A DNA stretch of 1,541 bases. Origin: Naegleria gruberi. Taxonomy: Eukaryota. The stretch lies in the NCBI GenBank assembly GCA_000004985.1, contig GG739388.1; one strand, 5' to 3'. A model generated the notes under the pieces. The model saw only the letters and a program-made list of their open reading frames with translations. It searched no databases and was not told where the DNA came from. Numbering within the stretch: the first letter of the stretch is position 1; each line of letters begins with the position of its first letter. The translations under genes and the position numbers were made by a program. This document shows positions 1-1,541 of this stretch, one piece after another.

Positions 1-39
1 AACAACCACATGAGTAACAAGTCCAACCCTCGAGTTCTT

Positions 40-65
40 CTTCGTTTCCCCCTTGGGACACGAAG
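40..65. other. Hairpin: cttcgt-t-tccc / ggga-c-acgaag. It has a 10-bp stem with one t/c mismatch and the loop cctt.
   Basis: Pairs c40-g65 through t45-a60, mismatch t46/c59, then t47-a58 through c50-g55, loop 51..54. It is 17 nt upstream of the stronger hairpin at 82..107. Confidence 0.5.
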
Positions 66-81
66 CCTGACCAAGGGTTAG

Positions 82-107
82 TCCCACCACTTCGTGAAGT
101 GGTGGGA
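82..107. other. Perfect GC-rich hairpin: 11-bp stem tcccaccactt / aagtggtggga with the 4-nt loop cgtg.
   Basis: I checked the pairing base by base (t82-a107 through t92-a97, loop 93..96). 7 of the 11 pairs are G-C. It lies in the ~50% GC block at the window start. There is no downstream T/U tract on either strand, so it is not a classical intrinsic terminator. Confidence 0.6.
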
Positions 108-130
108 ATGGAAAACTACTGAACCGAGAG

Positions 131-148
131 TGTTGTGTGTGGTGTTTG
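131..148. repeat. Short imperfect TG-rich dinucleotide-like tract tgttgtgtgtggtgtttg.
   Basis: Seen directly. It marks the boundary between the ~50% GC block (1..130) and the AT-rich tract. Confidence 0.45.
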
Positions 149-174
149 ACATGGAGTTAATTTTTTTAATTTGA

Positions 175-189
175 AATTTAATTTAATTT
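175..189. repeat. (AATTT)3 microsatellite within a 157..230 AT-rich tract (tttttttaatttgaaatttaatttaatttt...aaaaataaaaaataag).
   Basis: Seen directly. The region 161..420 is under one-third G+C by hand count. Confidence 0.8.
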
Positions 190-420
190 TATTGTTTGTG
201 ACTTGGCCAAAAATAAAAAATAAGATAATTCGATCTCCAAGAATCGAAAACTGGTCATGTACCTCCATATCCAGCGTTGTACCTCTATGCTACAACAGCA
301 AGAAGTACAACAAATAAAAAAACATCATTGAATAGCACTCCTTAATTGATATTAGCTATTGCAGTTAGGGTTGTAGATTTAATTTTCATGATAATTACGT
401 ACAATTACGGTAGTATGATT

Positions 421-458
421 CACGCGAGGATCGTTGAAGGTTCGACCAAGCTCGCGTG
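421..458. other. GC-rich inverted repeat cacgcgag ... ctcgcgtg (8-bp arms, 22-nt spacer) forming a small GC island inside the AT-rich flank.
   Basis: Arms at 421..428 and 451..458 are exact reverse complements. The spacer gatcgttgaaggttcgaccaag contains GGTTCGA, which resembles a tRNA T-loop, but no cloverleaf can be built around it. Confidence 0.4.
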
Positions 459-727
459 GTCCACAAGTTTTCACTCGAGGTTTAGCATTAACCCGACAAC
501 AATATAAATACATCTCTAGTATGTTATTTAGAATTATTGGTCATCTTTACAAATTCCGAAACTATGATATTGACTCAACAAATCCTAGTAACTGATTCCA
601 TTGTTGTGAGAATGGCCATAATAAGATGAAACATGCTTATTCTCAATATGTTGTCCCAAATCGTTCTTTTCAGCGCTTAATAGGCTCATTTCTGACTATC
701 ATGACAACAAGAGAATATACACATTTA

Positions 728-742
728 AACAAAGTCTTTGTT
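728..742. other. Perfect 15-nt palindrome aacaaag-t-ctttgtt, beginning 8 nt downstream of the minus-strand stop codon.
   Basis: Seen directly. On the minus strand it reads aacaaagactttgtt immediately after taaatatgtc. The arms are A/T only, so the stem is weak, and no U-run follows it. It may be a 3'-end or processing signal, or coincidence. Confidence 0.3.
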
Positions 743-749
743 GACATAT

Positions 750-1541
750 TTATGAATAAAATACAAAAATTGCAAAGAATACCAATGCAATACTAAGGAC
801 AATGCTCAAAATATCCATTCCATCGAGAGAATTGAAGAAATTCTTCTTTGGTGGTGAGGATTCAATTTCAATGTTTGCTTTTTCTGTTTCAATATTTTCT
901 AGTTGACTATCAGTTTCAACATTTTCCAGTGAATTTGGTATGTCAAAACTAAATGCAGCGGTTTGAGCTTGAGGAGATAGAGGAACTTGGTTAGTAGATC
1001 CAAAACTAAAAGGATCAGAATTTGATAAATTACATGAATTCCCCCGCATTTCATTAAACATGTTTGTCATGTATTCCCCTTGTTGCTGTCGTAGGAAAGT
1101 TTTCAACAGTTCTTCTTGTAATTTCTGTTGTTGCTCCAGCTCACTTGTAGATCCAAAACTAAATCCACTTGTTGCCTTTGGTAGTTGAGAGAATTCAGAA
1201 CCTAAACTAAATCCATTTTGTACTGATTGAGTTGGTGGAGGAGGTAGAAAATTACATCCACCAATCTGATTCGATTGTTGTTGCACTAATCCACCACATG
1301 TTGGTGGTGAAAAAGCACCAAAAGTAAATCCACCAAAAGAAGGTTGAGGAACTTGGTTTGTATTAAATTGACCAAAATTATTTGGGAAATTGTTTGTTGA
1401 TGAATTAATTTCTGTTGGAAAGAAAGGATTGGCAGATTGAGTGGAGGCAGATCCAACATTAAATGCAGAAAAACCTTGGTCAACTGGACCAAACGGACCT
1501 AATTGACCTAAATTATTTGCACCTAAATTGCCCAGAACCTT
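750..1541 (-). CDS. Partial CDS; the 5' end runs off the window at 1541 and the stop is TAA at 752..750. Hypothetical Q/N/S-rich low-complexity protein with FG-type repeats and a C-terminal hydrophobic tail anchor.
   Basis: I reverse-complemented 1287..1541 by hand and translated it. It reads KVLGNLGANNLGQLGPFGPVDQGFSAFNVGSASTQSANPFFPTEINSSTNNFPNNFGQFNTNQVPQPSFGGFTFGAFSPPTCGGL. There is no stop, and it is in the same frame as the 178-aa track ORF, since 1541-750+1 = 792 = 264x3. The track's 'start' at 1286..1284 is GTG read as an alternative start; in context it is Val, in ...CGGL-V-QQQSNQ.... A 264-codon open frame in sequence of about 37% GC is very unlikely by chance. The frame contains FG dipeptides (PFGP, NFGQ, SFGG, TFGA, and SFGS twice), codon bias toward A/T third positions, and a hydrophobic C-terminus. 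Confidence 0.72.
   Translation of the reverse strand, partial: KVLGNLGANNLGQLGPFGPVDQGFSAFNVGSASTQSANPFFPTEINSSTNNFPNNFGQFNTNQVPQPSFGGFTFGAFSPPTCGGLVQQQSNQIGGCNFLPPPPTQSVQNGFSLGSEFSQLPKATSGFSFGSTSELEQQQKLQEELLKTFLRQQQGEYMTNMFNEMRGNSCNLSNSDPFSFGSTNQVPLSPQAQTAAFSFDIPNSLENVETDSQLENIETEKANIEIESSPPKKNFFNSLDGMDILSIVLSIALVFFAIFVFYS
753..812 (-). other. Predicted single C-terminal transmembrane helix (tail anchor): ILSIVLSIALVFFAIFVFYS, followed directly by the stop codon.
   Basis: A 20-residue uninterrupted aliphatic/aromatic stretch (I, L, V, F, A, with Y and S only at the end) occupies the last 20 codons. It is preceded by the polar residues SLDGMD. No other hydrophobic segment occurs in the 263 residues visible. 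A single TM at the extreme C-terminus is the tail-anchored topology; this is inferred from hydropathy by eye, without a TM predictor. Confidence 0.55.
886..926 (-). repeat. 27-nt-period tandem repeat: gtttcaatattttc (886..899) versus gtttcaacattttc (913..926), 13/14 identical. It encodes the acidic peptide repeats LENIETE(KA) and LENVETD(SQ). A third degenerate unit, ttcaatttcaatg (861..873), encodes NIEIES.
   Basis: Seen directly in the sequence and in the translation ...SLENVETDSQLENIETEKANIEIESS.... The period is 27 nt = 9 codons, in frame. Confidence 0.7.
994..1163 (-). repeat. Intragenic exact 17-nt direct repeat gtagatccaaaactaaa (plus-strand copies at 994..1010 and 1147..1163, 153 nt = 51 codons apart, in frame). 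On the coding strand it reads tttagttttggatctac and encodes FSFGST in both copies.
   Basis: Seen directly. Both copies are identical in nucleotide sequence, not just in amino acids (GFSFGSTSE... and PFSFGSTNQ...). Related degenerate copies of aaactaaatcca occur at 1201..1212 (GFSLGS) and near 1322..1333 (GGFTFG). Confidence 0.8.

What the first reader, a model, noticed from the sequence alone, without database searches (positions are those of the whole stretch)
1..1541. The locus looks eukaryotic or eukaryotic-virus-like, not prokaryotic
The visible polypeptide is Q/N-rich, low-complexity and FG-repeat-bearing with a tail anchor. Codon usage is A/T3-biased (caa, aat, ggt/gga, cca, tta) at about 37% GC in the coding region. 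There is a 590-nt very AT-rich non-coding flank with homopolymer A/T runs and an (AATTT)3 microsatellite. I found no RBS-like motifs and no operon packing. All of this is typical of an AT-rich eukaryotic nuclear genome (protist, fungus, invertebrate) or a large eukaryotic DNA virus, and atypical of bacteria, archaea or phage. Tail-anchor biogenesis and FG-domain biology are themselves eukaryotic. If the window came from a nominally prokaryotic assembly or metagenome bin, this suggests contamination, mis-binning or a eukaryote-derived insertion.
Basis: inference. Interest (0 to 1): 0.5.

Follow-up and report, generated by a model that had tools for sequence, protein, structure and literature searches.

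The report
Naegleria gruberi scaffold, orphan tail-anchored protein

Summary
The minus-strand ORF (753-1541, stop at 750-752) is 100% identical to the NCBI entry "predicted protein, partial [Naegleria gruberi]". That protein's only contig is 1541 nt long, the same length as the window. The ORF is also 261/263 identical to the full-length 272-aa protein NAEGRDRAFT_66949, which lies on an 820-kb scaffold. The window is therefore most likely an unmerged allelic or duplicate scaffold of a heterolobosean amoeba's nuclear genome. I found no sign of a prokaryotic or viral origin.

The sequence observations hold:
- GC3 is 0.19 and coding GC is 35.6%.
- There are six F-x-F/L/V-G/D motifs.
- A 36-residue helix is predicted.
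- A C-terminal transmembrane helix ends one residue before the stop.
- A 589-nt flank has 33% GC, with T7 and A7 runs and an exact (AATTT)3.

Tail anchors are not exclusive to eukaryotes. The RBS test is empty because the start codon lies off-window. The flank is no more AT-rich than the genome average.

The protein has no detectable relative outside N. gruberi and matches no curated family. Its function is therefore inferred only. The one unexplained feature is a GC-rich cluster of three hairpins at 36-110.

The parts
753..1541 (-). Coding sequence for residues 10-272 of a 272-aa N. gruberi orphan protein. It is an allele or duplicate of NAEGRDRAFT_66949 (UniProt D2VDK3). The frame is open to the right end of the window, and no intron is needed within the window.
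   Evidence: ORF; 100% identity to EFC35304.1/XP_002668048.1; 261/263 identical to the 272-aa cluster mate; GC3 0.19; chance of an open frame about 4e-9
750..752 (-). TAA stop codon
1152..1541 (-). Nearly uncharged region rich in F, G, Q, N, S and P and predicted to be disordered (window residues 1-130). It holds four of the F-x-F/L/V-G motifs: SAFNVGSA, GGFTFGAF, NGFSLGSE and SGFSFGST.
   Evidence: composition, motif positions, shuffle test; pLDDT below 50, no secondary structure; DNA repeat families D1 and D2
1041..1148 (-). Predicted 36-residue helix rich in Q, E, L and K (residues 132-167, SELEQQQKLQEELLKTFLRQQQGEYMTNMFNEM...). It is a possible short coiled coil or interaction helix.
   Evidence: helix H132-167; block-mean pLDDT 73, 87 and 76 for residues 131-160, falling to 60 for 161-170
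822..1040 (-). Acidic, S/T/N-rich linker predicted to be disordered (residues 168-240). It holds two more motifs (DPFSFGST, AAFSFDIP) and short acidic repeats (LENVETDSQ / LENIETEKA / NIEIESS).
   Evidence: 3 positive and 11 negative residues; families D9 and D11 at 861-930
756..821 (-). C-terminal transmembrane helix, the tail anchor (residues 241-262). One residue (S263) follows it before the stop.
   Evidence: Kyte-Doolittle mean 2.84 at 244-262; helix 241-262, block-mean pLDDT 81-96
161..749 (.). AT-rich DNA with no detected coding sequence, lying 3' of the gene (32.8% GC). It contains T7 at 161-167, (AATTT)3 at 175-189, A-runs at 209-220 and A7 at 316-322.
   Evidence: no frame shows the GC3 depletion of the CDS; no stop-free segment matches any of 5.8 billion proteins
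36..110 (.). GC-rich cluster of three adjacent hairpins (40-65, 67-81 and 82-107). The last has a perfect 12-bp inverted repeat with a 2-nt spacer. The cluster lies in a 49% GC block (1-160) at the left end of the contig. Its identity is unknown.
   Evidence: I15; z -5.3 on the + strand, -4.2 on the - strand, 0 of 200 shuffles as stable; no Rfam family; no tRNA

Best explanation
The window is a small (1541-nt) scaffold of the nuclear genome of the free-living amoeboflagellate Naegleria gruberi. It is most likely an unmerged allelic or duplicate copy of a locus that also lies on an 820-kb scaffold.

It carries residues 10-272 of an annotated but uncharacterised gene (NAEGRDRAFT_66949, D2VDK3) restricted to N. 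gruberi, plus 749 nt of 3' flank. The low GC3, the Q/N/S richness, the homopolymer runs and the microsatellite fit an AT-rich (35% GC) protist genome.

The protein's anatomy is shown or predicted from sequence:
- an almost uncharged disordered domain of about 130 residues, rich in F, G, Q, N, S and P, with FxFG-like motifs;
- a 36-residue helix;
- an acidic disordered linker with two more motifs;
- a transmembrane helix at the extreme C-terminus.

The mechanism is inferred, not shown. The C-terminal helix would insert after translation into an endomembrane, as in tail-anchored proteins. The disordered Phe-rich domain would then face the cytosol or nucleoplasm. There its repeated Phe motifs could make weak multivalent contacts, and the helix could mediate self-association or partner binding.

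I put the origin and identity at about 0.97. I put the tail-anchored topology at about 0.7. I put any specific cellular role at no more than 0.1.
For: - Identity: 100% over 248 aa to 'predicted protein, partial [Naegleria gruberi]', whose longest contig is 1541 nt. 261/263 identical to the 272-aa NAEGRDRAFT_66949 on an 820,293-nt contig.
- Taxonomy: Eukaryota; Discoba; Heterolobosea.
- Composition: the window is 35.8% GC, against a reported 35% for N. gruberi. That assembly has 1,977 scaffolds, so tiny scaffolds are expected (PMC9928731).
- A real gene: a 263-codon open frame with a chance probability of about 4e-9, and GC by codon position of 0.47, 0.41 and 0.19.
- Architecture: AlphaFold2 helices at 132-167 and 241-262 and nothing else ordered. 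Hydropathy peaks at 244-262. The cluster mate's N-terminus, MIDLKREREKVLG, is not hydrophobic, so there is no N-terminal signal peptide.
- No prokaryotic or viral relatives and no DNA matches.
Against: No genomic context could be read. The 820-kb scaffold was not retrievable, so 'allelic copy' rather than 'recent paralogue' or 'unmerged read with errors' is an inference. One of the two amino-acid differences (CGG Arg against Met) needs two adjacent base changes next to a C5 run, which could be a sequencing error.

No homologue exists to support selection on the protein or to suggest a function. The structure model is single-sequence and of low confidence overall (mean pLDDT 50.5). The FG array is short, with 3 canonical FxFG motifs.

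I found no evidence on whether the gene is expressed. Two literature searches on the locus tag and its number gave nothing relevant.
Confidence: 0.93

Rival explanations
1. The sequence comes from a large DNA virus of eukaryotes, for example a giant virus of amoebae, or is a virus-derived insertion.
For: Only generic features fit: AT-rich DNA, a low-complexity orphan ORF, and no cellular homologues outside one species.
Against: The protein search of 2.9 million viral contigs found no relative, and an exact 24-nt pattern from the left-end element was also absent from them. No PHROG family matched. The same gene sits on an 820-kb N. gruberi scaffold, and the window's GC equals the host genome average.
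Confidence: 0.01
2. The sequence is prokaryotic or phage DNA, or a eukaryote-like contaminant inside a prokaryotic assembly or bin.
For: None was found. The sigma-70-like and terminator-like hits are at or below shuffle expectation: 3 against 4.8, and 1 against 1.0.
Against: - No relative in one genome for each of 185,579 bacterial and archaeal species, and the 22-nt pattern from the left-end hairpin is absent from them.
- No blastn match in phages, plasmids or E. coli genomes.
- NCBIfam gives only sub-threshold noise: 15 and 13 bits against cut-offs of 40 and 189.
- The only record found to hold this protein is N. gruberi.
Confidence: 0.005
3. The protein is a membrane-anchored, nucleoporin-like FG protein. 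In this reading it is a pore-membrane or nuclear-envelope component whose FxFG motifs bind nuclear transport receptors, analogous to the C-terminally anchored TbNUP65 of trypanosomes.
For: Motifs of the FSFG and FTFG type sit in an uncharged, N/Q/S/P-rich disordered domain and are followed by a helix, as in Nsp1/Nup62-type nucleoporins. Another discoban is reported to anchor a nucleoporin by a C-terminal transmembrane helix (PMC11825100).
Against: - No Pfam nucleoporin domain matched at E up to 10. That rules out Nsp1_C, Nucleoporin_FG and the Nup35 RRM domain.
- Nothing matched PDB nucleoporin chains.
- There are only 3 canonical FxFG motifs in 272 aa.
- The protein has no homologue even in other Naegleria species in the databases searched, which is odd for a core pore component.
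- Low-complexity Q/N/F-rich orphan proteins are, from general knowledge, common in AT-rich protists.
Confidence: 0.06
4. The ORF is a gene-prediction artefact in low-complexity DNA and is not expressed.
For: It is an orphan with no homologue, matches no family and has a low-complexity composition. I found no literature on it.
Against: The chance of a 263-codon open frame in 36% GC DNA is about 4e-9. Codon-position GC periodicity is strong (0.47, 0.41, 0.19), and no flank frame shows it. A clean C-terminal transmembrane helix lies directly before the stop. The frame is kept intact in two assembly copies that differ by 2 residues.
Confidence: 0.04

Closest known systems
NAEGRDRAFT_66949 (EFC45013.1 / XP_002677757.1 / UniProt D2VDK3), 'predicted protein' of Naegleria gruberi NEG-M; and EFC35304.1 / XP_002668048.1, the partial model on the 1541-nt contig
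   Same: This is the same gene. The window ORF is 100% identical to the partial model and 261/263 identical to the full-length model, without gaps.
   Different: The window lacks the first 9 codons (MIDLKRERE). It differs at two residues, Arg166 against Met and Leu188 against Arg. The partial NCBI model starts 15 codons inside the frame that is open in the window.
FxFG-type FG nucleoporins with a C-terminal coiled coil (yeast Nsp1, vertebrate Nup62)
   Same: Both have FSFG and FTFG motifs spaced by polar, mostly uncharged, disordered linkers, followed by a helical segment.
   Different: No sequence homology was detected: no Pfam Nsp1_C or Nucleoporin_FG hit and no PDB hit. The array here is far shorter, with 3 canonical motifs where, from general knowledge, Nsp1 has more than ten. 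The helix is a single 36-residue segment. A C-terminal transmembrane helix is present, which Nsp1 and Nup62 lack.
TbNUP65, the Nup35/Nup53 orthologue of Trypanosoma brucei
   Same: Both are discoban proteins with a C-terminal transmembrane helix. In TbNUP65 the helix ties a nucleoporin to the nuclear envelope (PMC11825100).
   Different: The defining Nup35-type RRM domain was not detected here. There is no sequence similarity. Localisation of the Naegleria protein is unknown.
Tail-anchored membrane proteins as a topological class (for example Sec61-beta, cytochrome b5, SNAREs)
   Same: Both have a single hydrophobic helix at the extreme C-terminus, a luminal tail of at most 2 residues here, and no N-terminal signal sequence.
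   Different: This is a topological class, not a homologous family. The helix at 132-167 lies 73 residues from the membrane span, so it is not a SNARE-type juxtamembrane motif, and no SNARE or other domain was detected.

Membership tests
Naegleria gruberi nuclear genome (taxonomic assignment) | Sequence identity to a deposited N. gruberi record | tested here: met
   100% over 248 aa to EFC35304.1 on a 1541-nt contig, and 99% over 263 aa to EFC45013.1 on an 820,293-nt contig. This was tested at protein level only, because the N. gruberi DNA records were not retrievable.
Naegleria gruberi nuclear genome (taxonomic assignment) | Base composition matching the genome | tested here: met
   The window is 35.8% GC. 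N. gruberi is reported at 35% GC (PMC9928731).
   No such hit. The NCBIfam hits fall far below their curated cut-offs.
   The window holds only one gene, and the larger scaffold could not be fetched. No stop-free segment of the flank matches any protein.
FG nucleoporins (Nsp1/Nup62 type) | An array of FG repeats in a disordered, low-charge domain | tested here: inconclusive
   There are 6 FG dipeptides against 2.5 expected (P about 0.03), and 6 F-x-[FLV]-[GD] motifs of which 3 are canonical FxFG. Residues 1-130 hold 5 charged residues and are predicted to be disordered. The array is much shorter than in bona fide FG nucleoporins.
FG nucleoporins (Nsp1/Nup62 type) | A conserved C-terminal coiled-coil domain (Pfam Nsp1_C) or another nucleoporin domain | tested here: not met
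   No Pfam family matched at E up to 10, and no PDB chain matched meaningfully.
FG nucleoporins (Nsp1/Nup62 type) | Localisation at the nuclear pore and binding of transport receptors | not testable with these tools
   This needs an experiment.
Nup35/Nup53/TbNUP65 | A Nup35-type RRM domain | tested here: not met
   No Pfam hit. AlphaFold2 shows no folded domain other than two helices.
Nup35/Nup53/TbNUP65 | A C-terminal membrane-binding element | tested here: met
   A transmembrane helix at 241-262. TbNUP65 is described with a C-terminal transmembrane helix (PMC11825100).
Tail-anchored proteins (topological class) | A single transmembrane segment within about 30 residues of the C-terminus | tested here: met
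   The only strongly hydrophobic window is 244-262 of 263 (Kyte-Doolittle mean 2.84). Every other sampled window scores 0.35 or below. The helix is predicted with block-mean pLDDT of 81-96.
Tail-anchored proteins (topological class) | No N-terminal signal peptide or signal anchor | tested here: met
   The full-length cluster mate starts MIDLKREREKVLGNLGANN, which is charged and polar. This holds only if the annotated start is correct.
Tail-anchored proteins (topological class) | Post-translational insertion by the GET/TRC40 pathway or an equivalent | not testable with these tools
   This needs an insertion assay.
SNARE proteins | A heptad SNARE motif of about 60 residues directly before the transmembrane helix | tested here: not met
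   No Pfam SNARE or syntaxin hit. The only helix, 132-167, is 36 residues long and is separated from the membrane span by a 73-residue disordered linker.

The most novel reading that the evidence does not exclude
Two readings are not excluded.

(a) The orphan protein is a lineage-specific, C-terminally membrane-anchored FxFG protein of the Naegleria nuclear envelope or another organelle surface. It would tether a small cohesive FG domain directly to a membrane. That would be a new variant of pore or organelle gating in a discoban with closed mitosis.

(b) The GC-rich three-hairpin block at 36-110, followed on the + strand by a T7 run at 161-167, is an undescribed small structured RNA gene (possibly a Pol III transcript) or a Naegleria-specific repeat.

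No comparative data support either reading.
Probability: 0.07. Interest if true: 0.45.

Novelty: already known. Interest (0 to 1): 0.1.

Why it matters
For a genome scan this is a sanity result. Compositional and protein-level cues alone correctly flagged a eukaryotic protist locus, and the sequence is already in public databases as Naegleria gruberi with an annotated hypothetical protein. Nothing here suggests contamination, horizontal transfer or a new biological system.

Two small points remain open. An uncharacterised, species-restricted, tail-anchored protein with FxFG-like motifs is a cheap candidate for localisation studies. An unexplained, highly structured GC-rich element lies at the contig end.

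Tried and rejected
**Known families**
- Pfam, NCBIfam and PHROGs scans of the protein gave no family. NCBIfam returned two sub-threshold hits.
- A sequence search of the PDB gave one meaningless hit at E=1.4.
- Rfam on the whole window at E up to 1 gave nothing. Rfam on 1-200 at E up to 10 gave only hairpin-shaped miRNA and snoRNA noise, 50 or more bits below gathering scores.
- ARAGORN found no tRNA.

**Homologues and related DNA**
- An exhaustive phmmer search of 1.84 billion representatives returned only the protein itself.
- The 5.8-billion-protein search returned only the N. gruberi cluster.
- Protein-guided scans of viral, metagenome and prokaryotic genome contigs found no relative.
- Exact patterns from the left-end hairpins found no match: a 22-nt pattern in prokaryotic genomes and metagenomes, and a 24-nt pattern in viral contigs.
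- blastn against phages, plasmids and E. coli gave no match. This also argues against a vector or host-DNA remnant at the contig end.

**Context and flank**
- Attempts to fetch the DNA around P0001 and P0002 found neither on record, so neighbouring genes, introns upstream and the other allele's DNA could not be examined.
- All 21 stop-free flank segments were searched as one concatenated query and matched no protein. These were the 20 segments of at least 28 aa plus the 26-aa segment at the left end. I therefore rejected the idea that the 49% GC block at 1-160 or the 47.5% GC block at 400-500 is an annotated exon.
- I considered a tRNA-like or B-box reading of GGTTCGACC at 441-449 and a Helitron-type 3' hairpin for 82-107. 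I rejected both by inspection because the stems and terminal motifs do not fit.

**Other**
- I did not run a fold search, because the model's confidence is too low to give meaningful matches.
- Literature searches for the locus tag and its number gave nothing relevant.
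Full report
**What is in the window**

The only long open frame is on the minus strand. It runs from the right edge (1541) to a TAA at 750-752, which is 263 codons. No other frame stays open for more than 71 codons. The chance of a 263-codon open frame at this composition is about 4e-9. GC by codon position is 0.47, 0.41 and 0.19, and coding GC is 35.6%. 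Codon choice is strongly A/T-ending: CAA 21 to CAG 3, AAT 22 to AAC 5, TTT 22 to TTC 7. The rest of the window (1-749) has no frame with comparable periodicity.

**Where it comes from**

A search of 5.8 billion proteins returned a single cluster. Its representative is 'predicted protein, partial [Naegleria gruberi]' (EFC35304.1 / XP_002668048.1). It is 100% identical to the window ORF and is found on one contig of 1541 nt, the same length as the window.

The cluster's other member is the 272-aa NAEGRDRAFT_66949 (EFC45013.1, UniProt D2VDK3), on an 820,293-nt contig. It matches the window ORF at 261 of 263 positions without gaps and adds MIDLKRERE at the N-terminus.

N. gruberi is Eukaryota; Discoba; Heterolobosea. 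Its Sanger assembly is reported as 40.9 Mb, 35% GC, 1,977 scaffolds and 57.8% coding (PMC9928731). The window is 35.8% GC.

The simplest reading is that the window is a tiny unmerged scaffold of that assembly, representing the second allele or a near-identical duplicate of the 3' 97% of this gene. This is an inference, because the DNA of the large scaffold could not be fetched. One difference (CGG Arg against Met) needs two adjacent base changes beside a C5 run, so sequencing error is also possible.

**Tests of a prokaryotic or viral origin**

All of these came back empty:
- Relatives in 1.84 billion representative proteins read exhaustively: none apart from the protein itself.
- Protein-guided scans of viral contigs, JGI metagenome contigs and one genome for each of 185,579 prokaryotic species: no relative.
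- blastn against phages, plasmids and E. coli genomes: no match.
- PHROGs: no family. NCBIfam: only noise far below the curated cut-offs.
- Sigma-70-like and intrinsic-terminator-like sites: at or below shuffle expectation.

These are essentially all correct. The details are in the observation check and are not repeated here. The corrections are:
- The non-ORF part is 749 nt, and its first 160 nt are 49% GC.
- The 589-nt AT-rich stretch (161-749, 32.8% GC) is only about 3 points below the coding region and close to the genome mean.
- The RBS and operon arguments are empty for a window without the start codon and with one gene. The single AGGAGG is within chance.
- From general knowledge, tail-anchored proteins are not restricted to eukaryotes.

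**The protein**

No Pfam family matched at E up to 10, and no solved structure is related.

A single-sequence AlphaFold2 model is disordered except for a helix at 132-167 and a helix at 241-262. Block-mean pLDDT is 73, 87 and 76 for residues 131-160, falling to 60 for 161-170, and 81-96 for the second helix. The second helix coincides with the only hydrophobic segment (244-262, Kyte-Doolittle mean 2.84) and is followed by one residue.

Residues 1-130 are 22% Q+N, 18% S+T, 13% F, 15% G and 11% P, with 5 charged residues. Residues 169-240 are acidic, with 11 negative and 3 positive residues.

Six copies of an F-x-[FLV]-[GD] motif occur: SAFNVGSA, GGFTFGAF, NGFSLGSE, SGFSFGST, DPFSFGST and AAFSFDIP. 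Shuffles give 0.27 on average, but the motif was defined after the fact. The copies also appear as 14- to 22-nt DNA repeats with shared codon choice. That suggests internal duplication rather than composition alone.

The full-length homologue has a polar N-terminus, so the topology is that of a tail-anchored protein.

**How it probably works (inference)**

The C-terminal helix would insert after translation into an endomembrane. The Phe-rich, uncharged disordered domain would face the cytosol or nucleoplasm. There it could make weak multivalent Phe-mediated contacts, with the 36-residue helix providing self-association or partner binding.

The resemblance to FxFG nucleoporins (Nsp1/Nup62) is compositional only. 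The defining coiled-coil domain is not detected, and the array is short. A discoban precedent for a C-terminally anchored nucleoporin exists in TbNUP65 (PMC11825100). Its defining Nup35-type domain is absent here.

I give the nucleoporin-like reading about 6%. The lack of any detectable homologue, even among other Naegleria proteins in the searched collections, points to a fast-evolving, low-complexity orphan.

**An unexplained feature outside the finding**

The left 160 nt are 49% GC. They fold into three adjacent hairpins at 40-65, 67-81 and 82-107. The last has a perfect 12-bp inverted repeat with a 2-nt spacer (I15). By my own rough estimate, such a repeat is expected about 2.5e-3 times by chance in a window of this size.

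For 36-110 the folding z-score is -5.3 on the + strand and -4.2 on the - strand, and 0 of 200 shuffles fold as well. The middle hairpin needs a G-U pair on the + strand and is weaker on the - strand. A T7 run follows on the + strand at 161-167.

Nothing else identifies the block:
- No Rfam family and no tRNA.
- No protein match for any frame.
- No exact copy of the 22-nt hairpin pattern in prokaryotic genomes or metagenomes, or of a 24-nt pattern in viral contigs.

It could be a small structured RNA gene, a repeat or transposon end that also caused the contig break, or a structured UTR of a neighbouring gene. I could not discriminate between these without the Naegleria genome.

**Verdict**

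The finding is already known, because the sequence is a deposited N. gruberi scaffold with an annotated hypothetical protein. Interest is low.

Noticed in passing
window 1-160 (core 36-110): A GC-rich (49%) block at the contig end folds into three adjacent hairpins (40-65, 67-81, 82-107), the last with a perfect 12-bp inverted repeat. The folding z-score is -5.3 on the + strand and -4.2 on the - strand. On the + strand a T7 run follows at 161-167. No Rfam, tRNA or protein match was found, and the two exact patterns searched had no copy in the public collections. It may be a small RNA gene, a repeat end or a structured UTR.
   Followed up: partly
window 400-500 (palindrome 421-458): A second GC-rich island (47.5% GC) in the AT-rich flank holds an 18-nt imperfect palindrome (78% complementary, 2-nt spacer) with 8-bp outer stems CACGCGAG/CTCGCGTG. 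The folding z-score is only -1.7 to -1.9, so it is not clearly beyond chance. It contains GGTTCGACC, which looks like a B-box or T-loop, but no tRNA fold could be built.
   Followed up: partly
window 1044-1046 and 978-980 (minus-strand codons 166 and 188): These are the only two amino-acid differences from the full-length copy on the 820-kb scaffold: CGG (Arg) against Met, and CTA (Leu) against Arg. The first needs two adjacent base changes and lies beside a C5 run (1041-1045). It could be a sequencing error rather than allelic variation.
   Followed up: no
window 944-1470 (minus-strand CDS): The FxFG-like motifs are also repeated at DNA level, as 5-6 copies of a 14- to 22-nt unit (CAAAACTAAATCCA on the + strand) with shared codon choice. 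This suggests the motif array grew by internal duplication.
   Followed up: partly
window 861-930 (minus-strand CDS, residues about 204-227): Short acidic repeats (LENVETDSQ / LENIETEKA / NIEIESS) are encoded by DNA repeats spaced 21 and 27 nt apart, just upstream of the membrane anchor.
   Followed up: no
window 1497-1541: The NCBI partial gene model starts at window residue 16 (PFGPVDQ...), although the frame is open for 15 more codons to the contig end. Those codons match the full-length protein. The deposited partial model is therefore trimmed short.
   Followed up: yes
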